In this document: in pieces, positions 25,835 through 54,432 of the stretch
Layout of the letters: each line of letters opens with the position of its first letter
Numbering within the stretch: position 1 is the stretch's first letter
DNA from: a virus
Direction: 5' to 3' (one strand)
IMG/VR virus record: IMGVR_UViG_3300031452_000005
DNA length: 64,000 nucleotides
The notes under the pieces: model-generated
What the model was told of the DNA's origin: nothing
What the model saw: only the letters and a program-made list of their open reading frames with translations
Database searches by the model: none
Program-made: the position numbers and the translations under genes

Positions 25835-26353
25835 ATGTCCGACACGCCGACGACCACGCCGACGCCAGCGGCGTCCGCGACACCTATGGCCCCCAATCTG
25901 ACACCGACGCCAGCCACCGCGCCCCTGGACCCCTCACTGTCCCCCACACCCGTATCGGTCGCCCCCGTCGCCGTCCCTCCTGTCCCCGTCGCCGTCCCTC
26001 CTATCCCCGCCGTCCCGCCGCCGCCCATGGTCGGCGCCCAGGACGTGCGCGTGTCCATCGACCCCGTGACGGGCGTCGGCACGCTTACGGGAACCCAGTT
26101 GTGGCTTGACGGCGAACAGCGGTCGGAGCCGCAGAACACGCTACGCCCCGACCAGATCGCCTACGGCACCGCCGAGATACCGGCCGTCCTCGAAAAGTTG
26201 ATGGCAGACATCGGGGCCAACGGCGGCACGGCCACCCCCGCCCACTTGGCGCTTGTCGTCGAGTTCGTGGACGCGCTCCGGGCCACGCCCGCGCCGCCCC
26301 AGGCGCCCGCCCAACCGACGACCTACGACGCGCCTAACCTCTTGTCGCCCTGA
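25835..26353 (+). CDS. Pro/Thr-rich hypothetical protein (possible fibre chaperone)
   Basis: AGAGGAGG RBS; directly after the fibre gene. Confidence 0.5.
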   Translation: MSDTPTTTPTPAASATPMAPNLTPTPATAPLDPSLSPTPVSVAPVAVPPVPVAVPPIPAVPPPPMVGAQDVRVSIDPVTGVGTLTGTQLWLDGEQRSEPQNTLRPDQIAYGTAEIPAVLEKLMADIGANGGTATPAHLALVVEFVDALRATPAPPQAPAQPTTYDAPNLLSP

Positions 26354-26910
26354 CACTCCCACGCCGACAAGTTGTGGGATTCGTGCACCCCTGTTACCCC
26401 GCCTGTCTACCGCCGTCGCGCCCCCTCTGACGCTACCCCTCTCGAAGTCGAACGGATGTGCCGCTTTGCCGCACCATACACGCACAAACCCTATCCCGCG
26501 CACGGACACGCCGCCGCGCGCCCCGACGCCCGAATGGCGCATCGAGCGCGTGCCCGACATGGACCGCCGCATGACGCCGGTAGACCTGTGCCCCTCATGC
26601 GGGGCGCCCGCGCCGCTCTCAGCGTCCCTGCGCGCGTCGTTCGGGCGCGGCTGGTCCACTGTCCCCTCACGCACCTATAACGCCCTCTCCGTGGCTCCTC
26701 AACGCACGATAGACCCCTGCATCCATTGGGTCGGCGTCGCGGCATCGTTAGGTGAGGCGAAGGCGCTGCTGCCTCAGGGGGGCGTGGCACGGGCGCGGCA
26801 CGCCACGGACGCGCAAGAACGCGCGCGGGCGGGCGTCGATAGCCGCTGGCGCTGCTGGCGTCCCGACGATGACAATGGGCATGTTGCCCAGTAGAAGGGA
26901 TAACGCGCTC

Positions 26911-27702
26911 ATGCAAACCACTGACCAACCCAACTCCGAGAGCATACAACCACCCCTGCTGGTGCTGGCGCAGCAACTCGGAGTATTGCAGGCAAAACAG
27001 GACGAGTTCGCGCGGCACATCTACGACGCCCACGCCCACGACAAGCGTTTCGCCGATGTGTTTGAGCGCCTGGATTCGATACGTGATGATTTGACACGCG
27101 TCCTGCGCGAGGAAATCAGCGCCTTCACCGCCAAAGACCAGGCCGGACAAGAAGGGCTGAAAAAGCAACTCGTGGAGATTCGCGCTATCGCCGTCGAGAG
27201 CCAGGAGGAAGCCGAATACCGTAAGGCGCGCGAAGCGCATATGGAGCGGCAAGATGAGCAAACGGCGGTCATGACCACGCACATCACGGAGTTGCGGGGT
27301 CTCTTGCACGCGCAGACGGCGATTGAAGCCACGCGCCAAGAAGCGCTCAAAGAGGCCGAACGCGTGGAAGCCGCGCGTGAGGAGAAGCGGCGCCAGCATA
27401 TCGCTTTGGTCGCCAAGCAGACGGAACAACAAACCAGGGACCTGAGCGCCCAAATCGCCGCCCAGAACAAGCAACTAGGCGATACGTTGGCGCGCTACTT
27501 TGGCCCCCTGGGCGTGGCCGCGTTCTCCTACTTCTTAGTTGGATCAAGTACAGCCGGGCAAACCCGCACGCTTGTGCTGGCCGGTATCGTGGTCGTGGTC
27601 ATTATCTACATCATCGCCATGATTGTCCGTCGGGCGGTGATCGCGCGTCAACTCCGCGCCTTGCAACGCGCGGAACGCCCAGGGGAACGAGAGGCGCCCT
27701 GA
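26911..27702 (+). CDS. coiled-coil protein with two C-terminal transmembrane helices (holin-like candidate)
   Basis: AGAAGGGA RBS; long Glu/Gln/Arg helix then FGPLGVAAFSYFLV and LVLAGIVVVVIIYIIAMIV. Confidence 0.55.
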   Translation: MQTTDQPNSESIQPPLLVLAQQLGVLQAKQDEFARHIYDAHAHDKRFADVFERLDSIRDDLTRVLREEISAFTAKDQAGQEGLKKQLVEIRAIAVESQEEAEYRKAREAHMERQDEQTAVMTTHITELRGLLHAQTAIEATRQEALKEAERVEAAREEKRRQHIALVAKQTEQQTRDLSAQIAAQNKQLGDTLARYFGPLGVAAFSYFLVGSSTAGQTRTLVLAGIVVVVIIYIIAMIVRRAVIARQLRALQRAERPGEREAP

Positions 27703-28424
27703 TGCGCTGGTCCAGATTGTCTACCCTGGTATGGCGCAACCTGCACATCCCCATCGGCGCCATCGCGGTTTACGCCGACGTGATGACGCCCGTTCTGCAT
27801 CTTCATCCATGGGGATTTTTGGTTTTGTACATCATCGTCGCCACGCTCACGGGGGGCGTCGGCGTGGGGTGTCTCGCCACTGGCATTTCGCTGTATACGG
27901 CGACGCTCTTAGGCGCACGGTTCCCCGCCTTGCCGCTGGAAACAGCCACGATCATGGCGGGCGCCACGTTCTTGTTGTGGCACGAGTACACGCGCGGTCA
28001 GGCCACGCAGGTCGCTGTCGTAGAGGCGCGTCAGCACGAACAACGTCTCCTGGCCGCGTGGCCTGCGGCGGTCATTGGCATCAACGCACACGGCATTATC
28101 ACGCGCTGGAACGCGCGCGCGGTCTCCCTGCTTGGCTACAGCGAGCAGGACGCGGTTGGCGCGGAACTGGCCGACTTGCTGATCCCCGTCCGACATCAGA
28201 CCGCACACCGCGTCGGGATCAAGCACGCGCTCAAAACGGGCGAGGGTCCGATTGAGATGCGCTGGCTGTCCCTGCCTGCGCGCTGCAAAGATAACTCTGA
28301 GCGGCGCGTCACTATGATGCTGGTGCGTGCGGGTGATCCCGTGACGGCCACCGCGAACGGTCGGGACGTGGCGTGGGTGGCGTTCATCAGCGATCCTGAT
28401 AGCCCCGTGACCTATATTGAATAG
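27702..28424 (+). CDS. membrane protein with PAS domain and no kinase domain
   Basis: About 4 hydrophobic segments (DUF4118-like) then AVIGINAHGIITRWNARAVSLLGYSEQDAVG...LIP...ARCKD S-box pattern; stops at the end of PAS. Confidence 0.75.
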   Translation: MRWSRLSTLVWRNLHIPIGAIAVYADVMTPVLHLHPWGFLVLYIIVATLTGGVGVGCLATGISLYTATLLGARFPALPLETATIMAGATFLLWHEYTRGQATQVAVVEARQHEQRLLAAWPAAVIGINAHGIITRWNARAVSLLGYSEQDAVGAELADLLIPVRHQTAHRVGIKHALKTGEGPIEMRWLSLPARCKDNSERRVTMMLVRAGDPVTATANGRDVAWVAFISDPDSPVTYIE

Positions 28425-28635
28425 CCTGCGGAGAAAGACGGTCGCGCTGGTGCGTGAAAAGAGGCGCGCGATGGGCGTGGCGCGGGCCATCCCCATCGTC
28501 GTGATCTCGGCGTGGGCGGAGGATAGTGCCCATAGCGCCGGGGTGTCCCGCGACGGGTGGCTCGAAAAGCCGTTCGAGTTGCACGACATCTACACCATCG
28601 TCGCACGTTATGCGGGCGTTCCTGCGCCACCGTAG
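28417..28635 (+). CDS. C-terminal half of a CheY-like receiver domain (fragment)
   Basis: IPIVVISA...AG...GWLEKPFEL..I..IV; acidic pocket and phospho-Asp half absent. Confidence 0.65.
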   Translation: MNSLRRKTVALVREKRRAMGVARAIPIVVISAWAEDSAHSAGVSRDGWLEKPFELHDIYTIVARYAGVPAPP

Positions 28636-28691
28636 CCCTGTATCTCTATCCGTATGTATGTCTAATCACATTGCCCCCTTGGAGGTTCCCC

Positions 28692-29330
28692 ATGCCCAAA
28701 TCCGCGCCCGGCGATAAGGTCGCCATCGACCACGCCACGACGGCCAGCGCCGTCGTCACCCCCGCGTCCGCCCTTCCCTCAACGGATGGGACGCCCGTCC
28801 TCGTCGCCCTCTACCACGGCGACGGGCGTTCCCTGTTTGTGCCGGAGGACCAGGCCGACACCTGGATACGCGAGGGCTTCACCCGCGAACGCCACGACAT
28901 CGGCGAGTTGTCCGGCCAGACGGCGCTCTTGTTCGACAGCGCCAAGGGCGCCGTCGCCGCCTATGCCGACGAGGCATCCAAGAACGCCACGCTCACGAAA
29001 GGCGACACCTCGAATATGTATGTGGCGGAGCACGCCATGGCCGACCTCGTGGAGACGTGGGGTCGCCTACATCGCGCCATCCACGCACAGAAAGGCGTCG
29101 CGCAGGGCGAGGCGGTCGCGGTGACAGACCATGCGACCGGGCAATCCGTGCAGGTGGACCCCCACCAGCATGACCTGTACGCGACTGGCCCCACCGAGGC
29201 GTACACCGGCACGGGCAACCCATACCAGAAGCCCGCCGAGGTGACGCAAGCGCACATCAAAGAGCAAATAGCAGCGGGGCGCGACCCTATGGAGCAGCAT
29301 CCCGCCACCGTAGCGGCGCGCGGCAAATAG
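28692..29330 (+). CDS. hypothetical late protein
   Basis: GGAGG RBS; 212 aa. Confidence 0.55.
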   Translation: MPKSAPGDKVAIDHATTASAVVTPASALPSTDGTPVLVALYHGDGRSLFVPEDQADTWIREGFTRERHDIGELSGQTALLFDSAKGAVAAYADEASKNATLTKGDTSNMYVAEHAMADLVETWGRLHRAIHAQKGVAQGEAVAVTDHATGQSVQVDPHQHDLYATGPTEAYTGTGNPYQKPAEVTQAHIKEQIAAGRDPMEQHPATVAARGK

Positions 29331-30029
29331 ATGACACAGGGCGCGCACGCCACACTGGCCGCGCATGATACGACGACAGACAGAGGGCAACACACGATGA
29401 CCACGATGACATCCAGCGTTTTGTACGAACACGCCGACCTGGGGCGCATCTACGCGCCCGTCGCCCTGACGCGCGCCCTCTCGCTGCCGGGGCGGCCCGC
29501 GCACACGCCGCCAGCCGGTGAGTACGGCGTCTGCGTCGCCGTCCAGAAGCGCCCCGTCTATGACGAGGCGGGCGTCCTACGCAAGATGGCGATGATCTGG
29601 CACAGTGTCACCCACAACGAGCGCGTCAATCAGGGCGCGCTCCGGCAGGATGTGGCCGTGTTCCAGAGCACCGCCATGGCCTTCACGACCATCGCCCTCG
29701 CCAGCGCCACACTCACCAAGACGGCCACCGACCTCTCATTGGGGAGCGCGACGGCGGCCGTCACGACCAACGAGTTCACGACGCTGGGCCTGGCCCGCGC
29801 CGTGGGCACGCTCGGCACGTACACGGCGCCCACGGCGCTGGGTGGACAGTTTTCCCAACCCCTATCAAAAACATTTACGGCGACCGGAAACGCCACCGTG
29901 TACGGGAGCGGCCTGTTCGATAGCGTGACCGTGGCGTCGAGTAGCCAATATTGCGAAGATAATTTCTCCAGCACCGCAGTCATGGTGAATGCCGATTCTT
30001 TGACCGCGACATGGACAATCCAAAATTGA
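29331..30029 (+). CDS. minor virion protein
   Basis: C-terminal SGLFDS....MVNADSLTATWTI beta-sandwich pattern seen in phage minor tail proteins. Confidence 0.55.
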   Translation: MTQGAHATLAAHDTTTDRGQHTMTTMTSSVLYEHADLGRIYAPVALTRALSLPGRPAHTPPAGEYGVCVAVQKRPVYDEAGVLRKMAMIWHSVTHNERVNQGALRQDVAVFQSTAMAFTTIALASATLTKTATDLSLGSATAAVTTNEFTTLGLARAVGTLGTYTAPTALGGQFSQPLSKTFTATGNATVYGSGLFDSVTVASSSQYCEDNFSSTAVMVNADSLTATWTIQN

Positions 30030-30048
30030 GTCTCGCCATCTGCTTGAT

Positions 30049-30789
30049 TCAAGGCTGCTTCCATGCGCGGCGCGCCAGCACGTTACACACCTGGGCCTCG
30101 GATAGGCCGTAGCGCTCCATGAGCGTTTTGCTATCAAGGTCACTGGCGCGCATCTCCTCAGCGATAGCGTAGTTGATCTTGGCAACGGCACCGCGTTGGA
30201 TGTTACGCGTGTGTGTGACGGGTTCGAGATGGTCAGGGCGCACACAATCACGCCGACGGCAGAGGTGATCCAATTCATATCCGTCCGCAATGGGGCCAAA
30301 CCTTTCCTCGTAAAACACGCGATGGGCCAGGCTTCCACGTTTGCCGTCGGCGCTGGTATATGATCCGTAGCCATCACTCTGCTTGCCGCGTCGCCAGATC
30401 CAGCACGGCGTGTCGTATCCGCAATCCGTGACGATATACAGCGCGCCCGTATATTTCACGGCTTGATGTCCGGGGCGATAGCGACGATGGTGTCCGATTG
30501 CATACCCCGAGAGGGGTACGCTCTTAGTCGCAACGGCCGTTTGGCCCCCGCATCCACACATGCATATCCCAGACGGATTAGGGTCTTCCACGCCGATAAG
30601 CAGTTGCATGTAACGCGCACGCGTACTGTGCTTAGGCATAAATCGACAAGGCTTGCCCTTGACAGACCTATCCCTTGTGTTCGTCGATGTAGCGATAGGC
30701 GTGACGCCCCCACACCCGCATTGACATAACCCCTCTGGAATACACGTCCCGCTGTCGTCGCCGTTAACCCTATCGTTCGCTTGCTCCAT
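30049..30789 (-). CDS. HNH homing endonuclease with two N-terminal CxCGCG zinc-binding repeats
   Basis: GLCQCGCG and GICMCGCG; CWIW...GYG...LAHRVFY...ELDHLCRRRDCVRPDHLEPVTHTRN. Confidence 0.88.
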   Translation of the reverse strand: MEQANDRVNGDDSGTCIPEGLCQCGCGGVTPIATSTNTRDRSVKGKPCRFMPKHSTRARYMQLLIGVEDPNPSGICMCGCGGQTAVATKSVPLSGYAIGHHRRYRPGHQAVKYTGALYIVTDCGYDTPCWIWRRGKQSDGYGSYTSADGKRGSLAHRVFYEERFGPIADGYELDHLCRRRDCVRPDHLEPVTHTRNIQRGAVAKINYAIAEEMRASDLDSKTLMERYGLSEAQVCNVLARRAWKQP

Positions 30790-31040
30790 CTTCGTATGCC
30801 TCGCACGCATAGAATAAGGGCCATTCGGACGGCAACGGTGCGAGCGCCGCCATCCAGGAATGACCCCATCATGTAGTGTATCCGACCGCCCATTACCCTC
30901 GCACGGCTTTGGTGGTCGCACCTACATTATACCACATCTACCGTTGAAAATAGCATGATAGACTTGCACTAAATAGCCCCATCAGGGCCTATCCGTCGCC
31001 AATTGTCGCCGCGCGCTGTCTCGGGGAGGGGAGGTCGAGC

Positions 31041-34000
31041 GTGGCTGTATCCCGCATCCAAGGCGTGGCCGCGGCGCTCGGCGCGACGGCCACCACGATT
31101 TCGGCGACGTTGCCCGCCGCGCCCACGGCGGGCAACCTCCTCCTGTTTTCATTGGAAGTCAAGAGCGGCACGCTCACGCCGACGACCCCTGCGGGGCTGA
31201 CCCTGGAAAAAAGCGTCGCCAATGGCACGATTGCGTCGGGCTATCTTTATTCGCGCATCGTGCAGGCCGGCGATAGCGCGACATGGACTCTGGGCAATCT
31301 CGCGTCCGCCGCCTATATGGGACTCGCTATCACGGAGTTCAGCGGGCAGGCAAGCGGCACGGCGTGGAATAATGCGCTGGCGACAGCTTCGGGTAGTAAT
31401 GCGATTGAACAGTGCGCCACTATCACGCCAACCGTCAACAACTGTCTGATCCACTGCGACTTTCAAGAAAACAGCTCGGATGCCTTTAGCGCAGCGGCGG
31501 CTCCCTGGACGCAGGGCTACCAATACGTGACCACGGTGAGCGCGAGCTGTTCCCTGGATGCGCAGTACCAGACGCAGGCGACGGCGGCGGCCATTACAAA
31601 CAGCGTGAACGTCGGCGCCACGCACAGTTACCAGGCGTTCATCGTCGCCATCGCCCCCGCGACCGCCACGGCCTACACGCGCGGGGTGATGTCGTCCGTC
31701 GTGTCATCACCCGCCGGGGCGCGCGCCGCGACCACCGCACGATCCACCACCGCATCCGTGTCCGCGCTCCCGACGGCGGTGCGGCAGGCCACGACGGCGC
31801 GCGCCACCACGGTAGCCACCGCCACGACGGCGACGGCGGCGCAGGCCCATACCTACGGGCGCGCGACGACCACCGCGACCGGAGCCACGATACCCGCGCC
31901 CGCACGCCTCTACGCGCCGCAGCGGCGCGTAGACGCGTCGGTCTCGCCCACGATGACCACAAGCCGCACGGCGACAACGGGACGCCCCACGGCGATCTCC
32001 GTGGCGCACACAGCGGCGCTTGCGGTCGTTCGCCTATCTACGCGTGCGTCCTCCGTCTCCCTGTCGGTGGTCGCTTCAACGGTGCGCGCCGTCGTCACGG
32101 GCCGGGCGTCCGCGCTGTCCATCCTCACGGGGAGCACGGCGACAGTGGCGCGCGCCTACAATCGCGCCCCGTCGAGCGCGGTCACCGCGTCCTCAACCGT
32201 TAGCCGCACGGCAACCGCGACACGCACGGGGACGCTCTCCGTCACGGCGATGCCCCAAGCGACGCGCGGGATCACGGCGGCGCGCGCGATGTCCGCGACC
32301 ATCAGCGCCGCCGTCGCGGCGGCCCGCGCCTCCTTATCGAGTCGTGCAACGTCCACAACGACACCTGCGACGACGCGCGCCAACGCGGCCCGTTCTTTCG
32401 CCCGATCCCCGCTCTCGACCGTCGCGGCAACCGGCGCGACCACGCGCCTCTACGCAGCGGCGCGGACGCATACAACCGCTATCGGCGTCACAGCGACGGC
32501 AGCGCGCCAGGCGACGGCGGCACGTCAGGCGGCGGCGGCTATCCTGTCCGCGCCGACGGTGGGCATCGGCAAGACCTTCGTGCGCGCGGACTCAGCGTTC
32601 GCGCAGATCACCGCGACGGCGACGCGCCTATCTGGACTGTTCGCGCGCGCCCTCTCCTCCGCGACGGCAGCGGCGACGCACGCGACGCGCGCCGCGACGG
32701 CGGCGAGACAGGGGACAGCGACCGTCGCCGCGACCGTGACGACGACCCGCGCGGTCGTCGTCACGCGTCCTCTGACGACGACAACGGTGATCACACCCAC
32801 TGTCCTCTCGACGCGCTCTTACCCGCGCACATCCGTGTCCACCACAGCGGTCACGACCACGACAAGCGCGACGCACGCCGCCTCACGCCTCACGACCGTA
32901 TCCATCGCGTTCGTCGGGGCGACACAGCGAACCGCCCTCGTGGTGCGTGCGCCAGTCATGTCCATCTCCACCACGACACAAGGGGCGCGCGCAGGCATTC
33001 AGGCACGCGCCGGCGCCCTCTCGGTCGCGGTGAACCCGACAAGCGCACGCTCCCTGACCGTCGCCCGCCCCGCGACCACGACGGTCGTGGCAACGGCAGG
33101 CGCGGCGGTCATGCGCGCCTATGCGCGTGCCCCGTTCGCGTCTGTCACGCCGACGACGACCGTCATGGGGGCAACGGTGCGCGTCCGTGCTGTATCTGTC
33201 TCAACTATTATCTCAGCGGTAGCGACGCGCATCGGCGCGTATCCTCGTGCTGCGTCCATCTCTCTTGCATCGACCATCACGCAGGGGCGACTATCCACCT
33301 CGACGCGCGCCCTGCTCACAGCCGCCTCGTCGTCGGCCTTCGTCTCGACCGGCAATAACCCCGTGCGCGGGGCGACGGTCGCGGTCGCGGTCGCGGTCGC
33401 GGCGGCGCGTACGCTCGTGCGGACGATCCCTGTGGTGTCACAGATCGCGGCATCCATTGCCACGTCCCGTGTCGAAGCCTTCGTGCGGGGCGCTGGGAGC
33501 GCCACACCATCGTCGCCTCTGGCGACGCGGCAGACAAGCGCGGGCCGGTCGGCGTCGGTCGTGGTCGCGGTCACGACCATAGTGGCGCGACTAATGGTCA
33601 TCGGGCGGTCTATCACCACGTCCGTCGCGCCGTCATCGTCGGTCGGCTCCTCGGTCCAGCACACCGCCGGGTCGTTGTCCCGCGTCGCCTCGGCGGCGGT
33701 CGCGCCCCTCTCCCGCGCCGTCCGCGCCGTTGTGGCCGCACGGTCGGCGTCCTCCTCATCAGCGGCGTCTGTCTCCGTCACGGCGACGCGCTTGACCCGT
33801 CCGCGCGGCGCCGCCACGTCCGTCGTGTCGCGGACAGGTTTATCGTCCGCGACGCAACGCGTGCGCGCGGCTCTCGCAGGGACGGCGCCAGGGAGTACGA
33901 CGACGCGCGTCGCCGCGGCCATACGACCCACCACCACGGCCACGGGGAACGCTGCGACAACGGTGCCTCACTCATCGTTCAGCCGCGTGTCGGCAGACGC

Positions 34001-50691: not shown

Positions 50692-51066
50692 ATGAGTAAT
50701 TGCACTAATGCTGAAACGATGCCAACACATCGCGTCTACATTCTCTGGCGTGCGGACCTCACGCCCACAGACCAGATCATCCAAGCGTCACATGCCGCTA
50801 TGGAGATGGCCTGGGTGTGCCCGCGCACCGAAGGGCTAGTCCACATTTGCTTGCTTGAAGTCCGCGACGACGATGCGCTACAACGTGCCGCGATGCGTTT
50901 ACGGCAAGCGGGCATCAGGGTGTATGCCTTTACCGAGCCGAGCGCGCATATTGTTGGCGATTATACCGCGCTGGCAACGGAACCTCTCAGCGAGGAACGA
51001 CGGCAACCATTGAAGAAATACAAGCTATGGGGCGTAGGGCGCGCGACTGATTCGGTGGAACCATGA
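50692..51066 (+). CDS. peptidyl-tRNA hydrolase 2 (Pth2)-like protein
   Basis: YILWRADLT..DQIIQASHAA...LLEV.D...L...F.EP....YTALATEP...LKKYKL. Confidence 0.7.
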   Translation: MSNCTNAETMPTHRVYILWRADLTPTDQIIQASHAAMEMAWVCPRTEGLVHICLLEVRDDDALQRAAMRLRQAGIRVYAFTEPSAHIVGDYTALATEPLSEERRQPLKKYKLWGVGRATDSVEP

Positions 51067-51398
51067 CCCAACGCGCCATCAAACCTATCGCACTCGCCGT
51101 CCTGGCCTGGACGGCGATCATGGCCGGCATCTGGCTAGGCCAGCGCATCGCGCAACGCCCCTGCCCCACGACGCCCCCACGCGTCATCACACGCATCGTG
51201 ACGCACATCATCTACGCGCCTATGCCTATGCCTACCGCTGGCCCTGTCGTTGTCACGGTGCGCCCTGGAACGCACCACACGCTTTGTGTGTATGTCAACG
51301 GCAAGGGACCGATAGACCCTATCGGCTTGCAAGACTGTTGGGGCGCTCCCGACAAGGAATACAAGGACGCCCATGGACATACAATCGACCCCTACTGA
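51063..51398 (+). CDS. membrane-anchored hypothetical protein
   Basis: N-terminal hydrophobic helix; ATGA overlap. Confidence 0.5.
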   Translation: MTQRAIKPIALAVLAWTAIMAGIWLGQRIAQRPCPTTPPRVITRIVTHIIYAPMPMPTAGPVVVTVRPGTHHTLCVYVNGKGPIDPIGLQDCWGAPDKEYKDAHGHTIDPY

Positions 51399-51984
51399 GT
51401 TGACGTTGTGGGTCGTTATATCGGCCAACACACAATGGCCGGGCGATCCTATCATCGGGGCCATGTCCCGCCGGTTGGGACATGCCGCCATCAAGCCGAC
51501 CGCGACACATGCGTTCCTCGTGTTGCGCGAACCAAGCGGCAACGTCTACGCCATCGAGGCTGTGCCCCATAAGGGCGTGCATCTGTTCACGATGGACGAG
51601 AAGCGCGGTCAGTGTCTCCGCTGGTATTGCGTGCCTGGGACTAACGAGCAGATACGGCGCATATGGGATGAGGCCGAGAGGCATCTGAACCGGCCCTATG
51701 ATTGGATAGGGCTTGTGCTCGTTTTGCTGTTCATGCTCCTGAAAAGGCCCAGTCTATTTTACATAAGACGCGCGGAGCTTTTCTGTAGCGCTCTGGTGGT
51801 CTGGACTCTTAAGGTAGCCGGGTTTGATGTGCTACCGGGCGTGCATATCGACAACGTAGACCCCGCCCGTTTGGACGGCGTTCTTGCTATCCGTGGGTGG
51901 GGATGCGACGCGCCCGATTGGTTTATCGCGCCGCAAGGCAACGATGTACGCCCTACTCCCGACCCCGACCACTCGCATCTCTAG
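51373..51984 (+). CDS. permuted papain-like (YaeF/YiiX, C92) amidase
   Basis: THAFLV...IEA....GV...A...LNRPYD...FCSALV: His precedes Cys as in permuted NlpC/P60. Confidence 0.75.
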   Translation: MDIQSTPTELTLWVVISANTQWPGDPIIGAMSRRLGHAAIKPTATHAFLVLREPSGNVYAIEAVPHKGVHLFTMDEKRGQCLRWYCVPGTNEQIRRIWDEAERHLNRPYDWIGLVLVLLFMLLKRPSLFYIRRAELFCSALVVWTLKVAGFDVLPGVHIDNVDPARLDGVLAIRGWGCDAPDWFIAPQGNDVRPTPDPDHSHL

Positions 51985-52054
51985 CCCGACGACAATGATA
52001 CACGCCTTCAGCGCCTTCGTGTAGCCATGACACTTACCACGGACGAGGTTCGCT

Positions 52055-53230
52055 ATGCTCCTCGAACCTTTCACGACTCGTGCCCTGCTGCTCGATGTCA
52101 GCCGTGGTGTGATGCCCACCCTGGACCAGTTCAAGGCGTTGATCGACCGATTAGTAGCGGCCAACATGACCGCGATTTGCCTCTACCTAGAGCCACAATC
52201 CTGGTCCAGTGAGGCATGGCCGGCGCTTGATCCCGACTACCCCACGCTAACGCCCAACACCCTCCGCGCTATCGACGCTTACTGTACGGCGCGTGGACTG
52301 ACGATCATCCCTGCCATTCAGTCGCTCGGGCACATGACCGCGCTTGTATCGCATCCCGATTGGTCACATCTCGCGTTGTCGGATGAGCGCTGGTCCATCA
52401 AGCCGTGCCCTGAAACCTACGACCTGTTGGGGCGCCTGTACGCCGATATACTAGCCTGTTATTCTGGCCCCTATGTCCACGCGTGTATGGATGAGCCGAC
52501 CGACCTGCTGCCGAGCGACCGCTACAGTCATGCGGTTGCCATGGGCTACCTGCCCCCGCTAGACTATCAGCCACGCACCATGCGCGGCACGGTCGCGGCC
52601 ATCGACCTCTACGCCCATCATCTGCATGCCATGCAGGCTATCGCCTATCAGCACGGCAAAAAGATGATCCTGTGGGATGACATCTTGGCACAACACCCCG
52701 CGCTTGTGTGCGACGTGCCGCGCTCCTCTATCGTCGCGTCGTGGTTCTATGCGCCACTCTCCGACGACGACGCCATCCACCTTTCAGCCCTGCATAGCAT
52801 CGGTATCGAGACGTGGGTCACCGCCTCTACGCACGGGCACGACACGCGCCTCTCCGTGGCCGAACGCTGCCAACGGGCGCGGGCGAATATCGACGCGCAG
52901 GTGTTGCTGGGCCGGACGCACGGCAGTACGGGCTTTTGTCTCGCGGCCTGGGGCGATGGTGGCTACAACCCTCTGGATGCGGCGCTAGACGCCGCGCTGG
53001 CGCATCTCATAACCGCGCATGTTCCTATCCCCCCGCTAGATCGTCAGACGCGCTACGCCGTCTACAGCGCGCTACAGCGCGTCTACGGTCGTGCCGTCCG
53101 CATCAGCGAAAGCACGATGGGCATGGAGATGGCGGAGCGCAAGACGCTCCACGCCGATAAAAGGCGCTACGTGCCGATGGATGCTCTCGCGGCCATCACA
53201 GGGACCTGCCAGGAAGCCCACCGCCTTTAG
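52055..53230 (+). CDS. GH20 beta-N-acetylhexosaminidase-like protein
   Basis: RALLLDVSR, IIPAIQSLGHM, HACMDE (catalytic DE), MILWDD. Confidence 0.8.
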   Translation: MLLEPFTTRALLLDVSRGVMPTLDQFKALIDRLVAANMTAICLYLEPQSWSSEAWPALDPDYPTLTPNTLRAIDAYCTARGLTIIPAIQSLGHMTALVSHPDWSHLALSDERWSIKPCPETYDLLGRLYADILACYSGPYVHACMDEPTDLLPSDRYSHAVAMGYLPPLDYQPRTMRGTVAAIDLYAHHLHAMQAIAYQHGKKMILWDDILAQHPALVCDVPRSSIVASWFYAPLSDDDAIHLSALHSIGIETWVTASTHGHDTRLSVAERCQRARANIDAQVLLGRTHGSTGFCLAAWGDGGYNPLDAALDAALAHLITAHVPIPPLDRQTRYAVYSALQRVYGRAVRISESTMGMEMAERKTLHADKRRYVPMDALAAITGTCQEAHRL

Positions 53231-53265
53231 CCGTGGGTACATCACCAACTGAGGCCGGCATCGTT

Positions 53266-53475
53266 ATGACCCAGGCCCAACACCGCGCCCGCGCCCTCAT
53301 CGTCGCCCTCGTGCTCCTCGTCCTCCTGGCGTTAGCCTACGCCGCCTGGAATGACTGGGAACGTGGCGGGGCGGGCATCAATGGTTGCTGGACGGTAGGC
53401 CCGGTCGGCGGGTGCCTCTGGACGATCAACCCACATCAACAAGCCACGGCGACGTATGGCCACGAGCACTACTGA
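53266..53475 (+). CDS. small membrane protein
   Basis: ALIVALVLLVLLALAYAAW helix; CxxxxxxxxC. Confidence 0.5.
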   Translation: MTQAQHRARALIVALVLLVLLALAYAAWNDWERGGAGINGCWTVGPVGGCLWTINPHQQATATYGHEHY

Positions 53476-53508
53476 AAACGCCCACCCCCAACGGAAAGGT
53501 AAACCCAC

Positions 53509-54432
53509 ATGCTCATCGTCTTAGACATCTCCAATCTGCAAGGGCCTAATGTTGACTTCAAGCTACTTAAAGCTAATGGGGTTTCAGGCATCCTGGCGAA
53601 AGCGGTGGAAGGCACCGGCTATCGAGACCCAACATTTTACAATAACTGGATGCGGGCGAAAGATGCGGGCCTGCTCGTGGGCGCGTACGGCTTCTCTCGT
53701 CAGGACCTGGGGCTACGCGCCGAAGATGAAGCCTACTACCTGCTCGAAAACCTCCCGCCGCTCGACACATCAGATAGCGTCTGGCAGGACCTCGAAGTAG
53801 GGAACGGCGACCTGACCGACTACGCCCTGACCTACGCCGACTACATCACGCGTCACATCGGTTTCTTCAGTGGCGTCTATTCCTACCCATGGTTCATCGC
53901 CAACCACCTACAGGGCGCCGCACTCGCCAACCTCAATCTCTGGCTAGCGTCCTACCAGGCGCTCTACGACAGCCAGGGCAATGTGCAATGGCCGCCGTGC
54001 CCGGTGCCCTGGCGCGAATATGTAATTTGGCAGCAGACGAGCAACGCGCGCTACCCGTCCATTCCTGATGTCGTTGATTTGTCCGTGATTCAACGCGACC
54101 TCGCGGGCCTCATGGCGCTCGGCAAGCCCGCGCCCATCGCGACCCCGCCCGTCGTCGTGCCTCCCGTTACCGTGCCTCCCGTGACGCCGCCGGTGACGCA
54201 AACGCCTATCACGCCTCCCCCCGGCAGGGTCAATCACTACGCGATCAAGGGATGTGCCTTGAAGCCGGCGCCCGACCACGGGAGCCGCGCGCTCGTCATG
54301 CTCGCGCCCGGCGCGCGCATCCAAGTCAGTGACCAGACAAAGATAGCCAACGGTGAGAAGTGGTCGTTCGTAGGCTACGGCGCCCATGGGACCTACTACA
54401 CCGGGTATTTGTTGACGACCAACATTCGCTAG
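53509..54432 (+). CDS. endolysin: GH25 muramidase + Pro linker + SH3b-like domain
   Basis: LDISNLQG, AKAVEG, GAYGF, DLE, LWLASY, IWQQT, VDLS. Confidence 0.92.
   Translation: MLIVLDISNLQGPNVDFKLLKANGVSGILAKAVEGTGYRDPTFYNNWMRAKDAGLLVGAYGFSRQDLGLRAEDEAYYLLENLPPLDTSDSVWQDLEVGNGDLTDYALTYADYITRHIGFFSGVYSYPWFIANHLQGAALANLNLWLASYQALYDSQGNVQWPPCPVPWREYVIWQQTSNARYPSIPDVVDLSVIQRDLAGLMALGKPAPIATPPVVVPPVTVPPVTPPVTQTPITPPPGRVNHYAIKGCALKPAPDHGSRALVMLAPGARIQVSDQTKIANGEKWSFVGYGAHGTYYTGYLLTTNIR

What the first reader, a model, noticed from the sequence alone, without database searches (positions are those of the whole stretch)
26911..28635. Kinase-less signalling module: coiled-coil membrane protein, membrane PAS sensor and half a receiver
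Seen: three coupled ORFs (TGATG overlap at 27700-27704; 8-nt overlap at 28417-28424). The second has DUF4118-like helices and a complete PAS domain and then stops; the third is only the C-terminal half of a receiver. Inference 1: a host hybrid histidine kinase was captured and lost HisKA, HATPase and the phospho-Asp half by internal deletion. Inference 2: the PAS protein works with the upstream holin-like protein as an environment-sensing lysis timer or as a decoy for host two-component systems.
Basis: partly seen in the sequence, partly recalled or inferred. Interest (0 to 1): 0.65.

Follow-up and report, generated by a model that had tools for sequence, protein, structure and literature searches.

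The report
Kinase-less phage membrane PAS sensor cassette
An uncultured phage carries a mobile, well-conserved gene pair, a long coiled-coil membrane protein and a membrane-anchored oxygen-sensor-like PAS protein with no enzyme attached, followed by a dead half of a signalling receiver gene, so the phage probably senses the state of its host without a kinase.

Summary
ORF1 (26911-27702) is a long helix ending in a membrane hairpin. ORF2 (27702-28424) has about 4 membrane helices and a complete PAS domain, and stops there. ORF3 (28417-28635) is the C-terminal half of a receiver. Both overlaps are real.

The three are not one unit. ORF1+ORF2 form a cassette shared at 88-93% DNA identity with an otherwise unrelated phage contig. 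Homology ends exactly at the ORF2 stop. All 17 known ORF2 variants are 240-241 aa, and dN/dS is 0.12-0.13. So ORF2 is a selected, kinase-less sensor, not a decaying kinase.

ORF3 is absent from both relatives fetched. It lacks the phospho-acceptor half and is most likely a fossil. Its cellular relatives sit just after, or fused to, HisKA-HATPase kinases, so an origin from a two-component locus is plausible but unproven.

The PAS domain is closest to FixL haem domains by sequence and fold, and the proximal histidine is invariant.

A role in lysis is weakly supported. A 63% ORF1 homologue lies two genes before an endolysin elsewhere, but the GH25 here is 25 kb away.

The scan has noted analogous phage PAS/receiver/membrane-hairpin modules on other DNA. 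No sequence look-alike of ORF1 or ORF2 was found among them.

The parts
26559..26894 (+). ORF0: unannotated conserved small gene directly upstream of ORF1. The start is uncertain: TTG 26466, GTG 26550, ATG 26559 or ATG 26571.
   Evidence: The frame is conserved with L002 8727-9188, and all indels are in frame. dN/dS is 0.29 in this frame against 1.5-1.9 in the two shifted frames. Only its last ~90 nt are present in L001.
26806..26910 (+). Left edge and leader of the mobile ORF1-ORF2 cassette, with the ribosome-binding site GAAGGGA at 26894-26900.
   Evidence: DNA homology with the otherwise unrelated contig L001 begins at 26806. Alignment A5.
26911..27702 (+). ORF1, 263 aa: one long helix (residues 45-210) running into a two-helix membrane hairpin (about 196-210 and 217-239), then a basic C-terminal tail.
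   Evidence: AlphaFold model, mean pLDDT 77. Hydropathy. 12 homologue clusters at 55-90% identity. dN/dS is 0.21-0.30 overall and 0-0.2 in the hairpin. No Pfam, PHROG, PADLOC or NCBIfam family.
27702..28424 (+). ORF2, 240 aa: about 4 membrane helices (18-33, 38-49, 55-70, 79-97; DUF4118-like), a helical linker, then a complete FixL-type PAS domain (about 114-230). His169 sits at the FixL proximal-ligand position. There is no output domain.
   Evidence: dN/dS is 0.12-0.13, with the membrane part at 0.08-0.10 and the PAS part at 0.13-0.17.
28417..28635 (+). ORF3, 72 aa from TTG (54 aa from ATG 28471, which has AGAGG 6 nt upstream): the 3' half of a receiver gene. Homology runs 28483-28617 (beta4-alpha4-beta5-alpha5, keeping the Ser and Lys). 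It lacks the acidic pair and the phospho-Asp.
   Evidence: Absent from L001 and L002.
28412..28680 (.). Window-specific segment of 269 nt that carries ORF3. The syntenic relative L002 has 54 nt at this position.
   Evidence: blastn break points and alignment A1.

Best explanation
SHOWN.
- ORF1 and ORF2 are a two-gene phage membrane cassette that moves between phages as a unit and is kept by purifying selection.
- ORF1 is a long helix of about 25 nm (probably a coiled-coil oligomer), held in the membrane by a C-terminal two-helix hairpin.
- ORF2 is translationally coupled to ORF1. It is a roughly 4-helix membrane domain plus a complete PAS domain whose nearest solved relatives are the FixL haem domains. 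It has no enzymatic output.
- ORF3 is the 3' half of a receiver gene, found only in this phage.

INFERRED.
(1) Origin. ORF2 is the sensing half of a DUF4118-PAS sensor kinase. ORF3 is the fossil of the receiver that followed, or was fused to, the lost HisKA-HATPase core. ORF3 is no longer needed.
(2) Mechanism. With the kinase gone, ORF2 senses a cytoplasmic signal, most likely O2 or redox through haem on His169. It passes the signal on by direct contact within the membrane to its coupled partner ORF1.
(3) Output. The ORF1 hairpin then changes a membrane event, most likely the timing of lysis (holin control). Less likely it blocks superinfection.
For: Cassette and mobility.
- L001 shares only window 26806-28425 with this phage, at 88-93% nt identity. 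L002 is syntenic over 17 kb.
- Eleven contig lengths recur in both the ORF1 and ORF2 cluster lists, so the two genes co-occur.
- Both genes stay intact in L001 although a TnpB-like gene is inserted between them.

Selection.
- dN/dS is 0.12-0.13 for ORF2 and 0.21-0.30 for ORF1, at dS of 0.12-0.48. Both ORF2 domains are constrained.
- All 17 ORF2 variants end at the same residue.

PAS type.
- phmmer against the PDB gives FixL 1D06 as top hit, E 3.6e-4, with His169 aligned to the RmFixL chain position I take to be His194.
- Foldseek ranks 1-11 are all FixL, TM-score by target 0.44-0.88, followed by EcDOS/DosP.
- NCBIfam FixL scores 4.8e-6.
- His169 is invariant in the 17 variants and in 8 diverse cellular PAS relatives.
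- Position 175, equivalent to FixL Arg200/206, is His or Arg.

Origin.
- DUF4118-like leads.
- ORF3-like receivers lie directly downstream of PAS-HisKA-HATPase (L011) or HisKA-HATPase (L016, L021), or are fused in hybrid kinases (L014, L015).

Lysis hint.
- In L009 the order is ORF1 homologue, a 91-aa ORF, a 231-aa protein with N-terminal membrane helices, then an Amidase_2 endolysin.
Against: - No contact between ORF1 and ORF2 is shown.
- Haem binding is untested, and the FixL distal Arg (Rm214/Bj220) aligns with Leu.
- ORF1 matches no holin or spanin family and is far larger than known holins.
- In this phage the lysis genes (GH20, GH25, small membrane ORFs) lie at 51-54.5 kb.
- L009 has an ORF1 homologue but no ORF2 and no receiver, so ORF1 works without the sensor.
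- The common origin of ORF2 and ORF3 rests on adjacency only. The PAS kinase next to the closest genomic ORF3 relative is unrelated to ORF2.
- ORF3 may have arrived separately, since both relatives lack it.
- The membrane part of the ORF2 model is of low confidence (pLDDT below 50).
Confidence: 0.45

Rival explanations
1. Decoy or dominant-negative. ORF2 inserts next to a related host DUF4118-PAS sensor kinase, forms mixed dimers through the membrane or PAS domains, and locks host two-component signalling. ORF1 is an unrelated neighbour or a scaffold.
For: ORF2 has the sensing-half architecture of such kinases and has no output of its own. PAS domains commonly dimerise (own knowledge). There is a phage precedent for targeting host kinases: PIT4 (PMC10714779).
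Against: No host protein resembles ORF2 beyond generic PAS similarity of up to 38% identity, and none shares its membrane domain clearly. Mixed dimers usually need close kinship. Translational coupling with ORF1 and joint transfer of the pair point to ORF1 as the partner.
Confidence: 0.15
2. Moron for superinfection exclusion or host-surface change. ORF1-ORF2 is an accessory membrane cassette in the tail-fibre/lysis hot spot that blocks entry of other phages. The PAS domain only tunes this, or serves as a structural module.
For: The cassette sits inside the tail-fibre region in the window and in L001 and moves horizontally. In L009 the ORF1 homologue follows an Acyl_transf_3 gene, a class known from lysogenic conversion (the class attribution is own knowledge). 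The position resembles HK97 gp15-type morons (own knowledge).
Against: There is no hit to PADLOC defence models beyond coiled-coil noise. No integrase or lysogeny evidence was gathered. Nothing here separates this reading from lysis control.
Confidence: 0.15
3. ORF3 is a working micro-protein: the alpha4-beta5-alpha5 face of a receiver, made from ATG 28471, which jams host response-regulator or kinase contacts. The three genes would then act together.
For: The frame is open. AGAGG lies 6 nt before ATG 28471. GC3 is 0.81-0.82, like neighbouring genes. The conserved Ser and Lys are kept.
Against: ORF3 is absent from both relatives, while ORF1 and ORF2 are conserved. It lacks beta1-beta3, the core of the fold, so stable folding is unlikely. 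It has no homologue of its own length and is absent from IMG/VR.
Confidence: 0.06
4. All three ORFs would be debris.
For: ORF3 is clearly a gene fragment. Some ORF3 relatives are fused in hybrid kinases.
Against: ORF2 and ORF1 are under strong purifying selection at substantial synonymous divergence. ORF2 has a fixed length in 17 variants. The pair has been transferred intact between phages.
Confidence: 0.04

Closest known systems
FixL haem-binding PAS domain (Rhizobium meliloti 1D06/1EW0; Bradyrhizobium japonicum 1DP6, 1XJ6, 8JS5); next EcDOS/DosP
   Same: Best sequence match in the PDB and best fold matches, ranks 1-11. The histidine on the F-alpha helix aligns with the proximal haem ligand and is invariant.
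   Different: No HisKA or HATPase follows. ORF2 is membrane-anchored by about 4 helices. The distal Arg that binds O2 in FixL aligns with Leu. The usual DIT motif at the PAS end reads SDPDSP and the protein stops there. Haem binding is untested.
DUF4118-PAS-(GAF/PAS)-HisKA-HATPase sensor kinases (for example hits P0122, P0134, P0121; KdpD-type membrane domain)
   Same: The same order of a small helical membrane domain with a GGxGxG motif, a helical linker and a PAS domain. Language-model neighbours of the membrane part are mostly DUF4118 clusters.
   Different: The Pfam DUF4118 model does not hit ORF2 even at E<=10. The transmitter half is absent in all 17 variants.
Single-domain CheY-like receivers encoded just after a kinase (for example L011 in an Anaeromyxobacteraceae MAG; EpsW-type)
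   Same: ORF3 aligns at 44-54% to their beta4-alpha5 half and ends where they end.
   Different: ORF3 lacks beta1-beta3, with the acidic pair and the phospho-Asp, so it cannot be phosphorylated.
Phage 'sensor relay' modules noted earlier in this scan (PAS kinase + lone receiver + coiled-coil two-helix membrane protein, often by lysis genes). These are unchecked AI notes.
   Same: The same three kinds of part: a PAS sensor, a receiver, and a coiled-coil protein with a membrane hairpin. The same placement after tail-fibre genes or near lysis genes.
   Different: Here the kinase core is absent and the receiver is a stump. No sequence look-alike was found. The ORF1 hairpin motif occurs in only one IMG/VR contig. 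Homology with those hairpin proteins was not testable.
Signal-controlled lysis systems: T4 holin T with antiholins RI/RIII; LytSR with LrgAB/CidAB (own knowledge)
   Same: The idea of a sensed signal modulating a small membrane effector that sets lysis.
   Different: There is no sequence or family relation. ORF1 is much larger than a holin and hits no lysis family.
Phage LSL4 protein PIT4 (PMC10714779)
   Same: A phage protein that interferes with host two-component kinases. It is the precedent for the decoy rival.
   Different: PIT4 is an early phage protein reported to bind the histidine-kinase domains of host kinases. ORF2 is a membrane PAS protein among late genes.

Membership tests
PAS fold (Pfam PF00989 / TIGR00229) | Score above the curated cut-off; five-stranded sheet with flanking helices | tested here: met
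   39.4 bits against a 22.6 cut-off. TIGR00229 33.9 against 22.9. Model strands at 123-127, 132-136, 188-194, 200-209 and 225-230.
FixL-type haem PAS | Proximal His on the F-alpha helix | tested here: met
   His169 aligns with the His of RmFixL/BjFixL. It is invariant in A2 and A6.
FixL-type haem PAS | Distal Arg (Rm214/Bj220) and propionate-binding Arg (Rm200/Bj206) | tested here: inconclusive
   By hand extension of the alignment, position 175 is His or Arg, and the distal Arg position aligns with Leu, with an Arg two residues earlier. No structure-based alignment was available.
FixL-type haem PAS | Binds haem | not testable with these tools
   Needs spectroscopy of the purified domain.
Sensor histidine kinase | HisKA (or other DHp) with the phospho-His, plus the HATPase_c domain | tested here: not met
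   No such Pfam hit. The protein ends 10 residues after the PAS domain. All 17 variants are 240-241 aa.
DUF4118 (PF13493) membrane domain | Match to the family model | tested here: inconclusive
   No Pfam hit at E<=10. 24 of 30 named Atlas neighbours are DUF4118 clusters. A weak profile link runs through P0134 and P0121 to the Pfam-confirmed DUF4118 of P0122.
ETR1_N ethylene-binding domain | Match to PF25487 and the Cys-x3-His copper site in helix 2 | tested here: not met
   No Pfam hit. The alignment to P0155 puts a gap at its CGGTH motif.
Response-regulator receiver (PF00072) | Acidic pair, phospho-acceptor Asp, and conserved Thr/Ser and Lys in a full five-stranded alpha/beta fold | tested here: not met
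   Only beta4-alpha5, with the Ser and Lys, is present. There is no Pfam hit. No N-terminal half exists elsewhere. ORF3 is a fragment of a member, not a member.
Holin (for ORF1) | Small membrane protein of a known holin family, encoded beside the endolysin | tested here: not met
   No PHROG or Pfam holin hit. ORF1 is 263 aa. The GH25 endolysin is 25 kb away. Only L009 places a homologue two genes before an endolysin.
Mobile accessory cassette (moron-like) | The same genes at high identity in otherwise unrelated phage genomes, with sharp homology borders | tested here: met
   L001 shares only 26806-28425. Synonymous divergence of the cassette is below that of flanking genes, 0.46-0.48 against 0.75-0.83.

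The most novel reading that the evidence does not exclude
ORF1-ORF2 is a kinase-independent, haem-PAS-gated membrane switch. It would be a stripped-down derivative of a two-component relay in which the sensor talks directly to a coiled-coil membrane-hairpin effector. Phages would trade it as a plug-in to tie lysis or exclusion to the oxygen or redox state of the infected cell. The receiver stump would be the visible trace of that simplification.
Probability: 0.2. Interest if true: 0.75.

Novelty: new variant of a known kind. Interest (0 to 1): 0.45.

Why it matters
Phages are usually thought to time lysis with holin clocks, and to sense their host only rarely. Here a conserved, horizontally traded sensor with no enzymatic output is coupled to a membrane partner. 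That would be a simple, testable case of a virus reading host physiology, probably O2 or redox, through protein contacts alone. The receiver stump also gives a rare snapshot of how a two-component locus can be pared down to its sensing half and still be kept by selection. If the module turns out to be only a moron of unknown use, the practical gains are smaller: a corrected annotation (ORF3 is a pseudogene fragment, and there is an extra gene, ORF0) and a new phage-only protein pair.

Tried and rejected
- GenBank phages: no DNA match and no protein match for ORF1 or ORF2.
- IMG/VR: ORF2, ORF3 and ORF4 have no relatives. ORF1 has only one contig, by protein, by profile and by a back-translated hairpin motif.
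- No whole genome is held for the window.
- Rfam found nothing in 26000-29000. The promoter/terminator scan gave nothing useful. Repeats flanking the cassette are only chance-level short matches.
- The ETR1-like reading of the membrane domain was rejected.
- Programmed frameshift joining ORF2 and ORF3 was rejected. There is no slippery site at 28410-28424, and the ORF2 stop is conserved in 17 variants.
- The idea that the cassette was inserted into a pre-existing receiver gene was rejected. No 5' receiver half lies upstream, and L002 has the cassette without ORF3.
- The PAS kinase beside the closest genomic ORF3 relative is unrelated to ORF2.
- The Atlas search with ORF1 gave only sub-threshold hits.
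- Literature searches found no description of such a phage module.
Full report
WHAT IS THERE. The three ORFs exist as described. ORF1 ends with TGA at 27700-27702, overlapping the ATG of ORF2 (TGATG). ORF2 ends with TAG at 28422-28424, 8 nt after the TTG that opens ORF3. The mechanical ORF list starts ORF1 at GTG 26752. The region lies among tail and tail-fibre-like genes of an uncultured phage.

ORF2. Pfam PAS scores 39.4 bits (cut-off 22.6, E 6.8e-10) over residues 114-213. No kinase domains are found. The AlphaFold model, built on 13 sequences, gives a complete five-stranded PAS domain at pLDDT 60-89. It is preceded by helices 18-33, 38-49, 55-70 and 79-119, which are modelled with low confidence. 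The protein stops 10 residues after the last strand. Where cellular relatives read RDITERK and continue into a signalling helix, ORF2 reads ISDPDSPVTYIE-stop.

The nearest solved proteins are FixL haem domains. By sequence, 1D06 scores E 3.6e-4 and BjFixL about 1e-3. By fold, Foldseek ranks 1-11 are all FixL, with TM-score by target 0.44-0.88, followed by EcDOS/DosP. NCBIfam also lists FixL, at 4.8e-6. His169 aligns with the proximal haem histidine and is invariant in 17 phage variants and 8 diverse cellular PAS domains. The position equivalent to FixL Arg200/206 is His or Arg. The distal Arg is not conserved by my hand alignment. Haem binding is therefore a lead, not a result.

The membrane part hits no Pfam family even at E<=10. 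Language-model neighbours are mostly DUF4118 clusters. A profile of the membrane part also aligns colinearly with the GGxGxG region of kinase N-termini that match a Pfam-confirmed DUF4118. So 'DUF4118-like' is reasonable but unproven. An ETR1-like reading fails.

ORF3. Pfam sees nothing. A search of 5.8 billion proteins returns only PF00072 receivers of 129-150 aa, best E 1.1e-5. The alignment covers their residues 96-141, i.e. beta4, alpha4, beta5 and alpha5, and ORF3 ends where they end. The conserved Ser/Thr and Lys are kept. The acidic pair and the phospho-Asp are missing. tblastn with full receivers finds no N-terminal half anywhere in the window, L001, L002 or L009. ORF3 is a 3' gene fragment.

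RELATIVES CHANGE THE PICTURE. The metagenome scan gave two phage contigs. L002 is syntenic with the window over about 17 kb at roughly 80% nt identity. L001 shares nothing with the window except 26806-28425, at 88-93%. That stretch is ORF1 plus ORF2 plus about 100 nt of leader, and it ends exactly at the ORF2 stop codon. L001 is a phage too, with tail proteins and a holin-like gene. In L001 a TnpB-like transposase gene has landed between ORF1 and ORF2, yet both remain intact.

Neither relative has ORF3. L002 has 54 nt where the window has 269 nt, and L001 continues with different genes. ORF1-ORF2 is therefore a mobile two-gene cassette, and ORF3 is not part of it.

SELECTION. By Nei-Gojobori, dN/dS for ORF2 is 0.12-0.13 at dS 0.44-0.48, and for ORF1 it is 0.21-0.30. 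Both halves of ORF2 are constrained (membrane part 0.08-0.10, PAS part 0.13-0.17), as is the ORF1 hairpin (0-0.2). Flanking genes give 0.09-0.26. The 17 known ORF2 sequences are all 240-241 aa with the same end. Eleven contig lengths recur in both the ORF1 and ORF2 cluster lists, so the pair co-occurs widely. An exhaustive HMMER search of 1.84 billion representatives found no full-length relative outside this clade, only PAS-level matches in multi-domain signalling proteins.

ORF1. The model is one 166-residue helix (45-210) that runs into a hydrophobic segment, then a six-residue loop, a strongly hydrophobic helix (221-239) and a basic tail. No family in Pfam, PHROGs, PADLOC or NCBIfam fits. 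The family is wider than ORF2, with 12 clusters down to 55% identity.

The one distant member I could inspect is L009, an IMG/VR contig, at 63% identity. It has no ORF2 and no receiver. Its gene order is: Acyl_transf_3, the ORF1 homologue, a 91-aa ORF, a 231-aa protein with N-terminal membrane helices, then an Amidase_2 endolysin. That is the only contextual link to lysis. In the window the GH25 endolysin (53509-54432) lies 25 kb away, beside a GH20 gene and small membrane ORFs of its own.

ORIGIN OF ORF2 AND ORF3. In cellular genomes, ORF3-like receivers lie immediately after a PAS-HisKA-HATPase kinase (L011) or HisKA-HATPase kinases (L016, L021), or are fused in hybrid kinases (L014, L015). 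A deletion running from the end of a PAS domain into the middle of the next receiver (or receiver domain) would give exactly ORF2+ORF3. A receiver fragment landing by chance right behind a sensor gene is unlikely.

I therefore favour a common two-component origin, at about 0.6-0.7. ORF3 would be a leftover later lost from L002, and not carried along when the cassette reached L001. It cannot be proven here. The kinase beside the closest genomic ORF3 relative is unrelated to ORF2, and no intact ancestor was found. Hybrid kinase versus kinase-plus-lone-receiver cannot be decided either, although the best hits are lone receivers.

MECHANISM.
- Shown: a coupled, co-transferred, selected pair of membrane proteins, one of which carries a FixL-like PAS domain and no output.
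- Inferred: the PAS protein senses a cytoplasmic cue (haem/O2/redox is the best guess) and acts through protein contact, most simply on ORF1, whose hairpin is its most conserved part.
- Guessed: the membrane event is lysis timing. Superinfection exclusion and a decoy action on a host kinase are the rivals.

Earlier notes of this scan describe phage modules made of a PAS kinase, a lone receiver and a coiled-coil membrane hairpin, often near lysis genes. They gave me the idea that this locus is a kinase-less derivative of such a relay. I could not test homology with those modules. There was no sequence look-alike, and the ORF1 hairpin motif is confined to one IMG/VR contig.

NOVELTY. PAS sensors, short output-less PAS proteins, gene remnants and phage morons are all known. 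A conserved, horizontally traded phage pair of an output-less membrane PAS sensor and a coiled-coil hairpin protein is not described in the papers I could search. It has no counterpart in 50,697 GenBank phage records. I rate it a new variant of a known kind, of moderate interest.

Noticed in passing
window 26466-26894 (+): An unannotated gene (ORF0, about 110-140 aa) ends 17 nt before ORF1. Its frame is conserved in L002, all indels are in frame, and dN/dS is 0.29 against 1.5-1.9 in the other frames. It contains a CPSCG motif. Function unknown. L001 keeps only its last ~90 nt, so the left border of the cassette cuts through it.
   Followed up: partly
L001 8696-9892 (-): A 398-aa TnpB-like (IS200/IS605-type) transposase gene is inserted exactly between the ORF1 and ORF2 homologues, breaking their translational coupling but leaving both intact.
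   Followed up: partly
window 26911-28424 vs L001: The cassette is mosaic. The ORF1 coiled-coil part differs from L001 at dS 0.06, but ORF2 differs at dS 0.44. This suggests a recombination break point between the two genes, near where L001 carries the transposase.
   Followed up: no
window 27702-28000 (ORF2 residues 1-100): The membrane domain has many invariant polar residues in 17 variants: His15, Asp26, His33, His35, Cys57, Glu80, His94, Glu95. These may form a metal or ligand site in or near the membrane.
   Followed up: no
L009 4485-9000: In an IMG/VR phage the order is: Acyl_transf_3 gene, ORF1 homologue, a 91-aa ORF, a 231-aa protein with N-terminal membrane helices, then an Amidase_2 endolysin with SH3-like tail.
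   Followed up: partly
window 51063-54432: Probable lysis region of this phage: small membrane ORFs (51063-51398, 51373-51984, 53233-53475), a GH20 hexosaminidase-like gene (52055-53230) and a GH25 muramidase (53509-54432).
   Followed up: partly
window 30049-30921 (-): A free-standing HNH endonuclease gene on the opposite strand, between ORF5 and the 1230-aa tail-fibre-like gene. The DNA alignment with L002 breaks from about window 30016 to 32117, a stretch that contains this gene.
   Followed up: no
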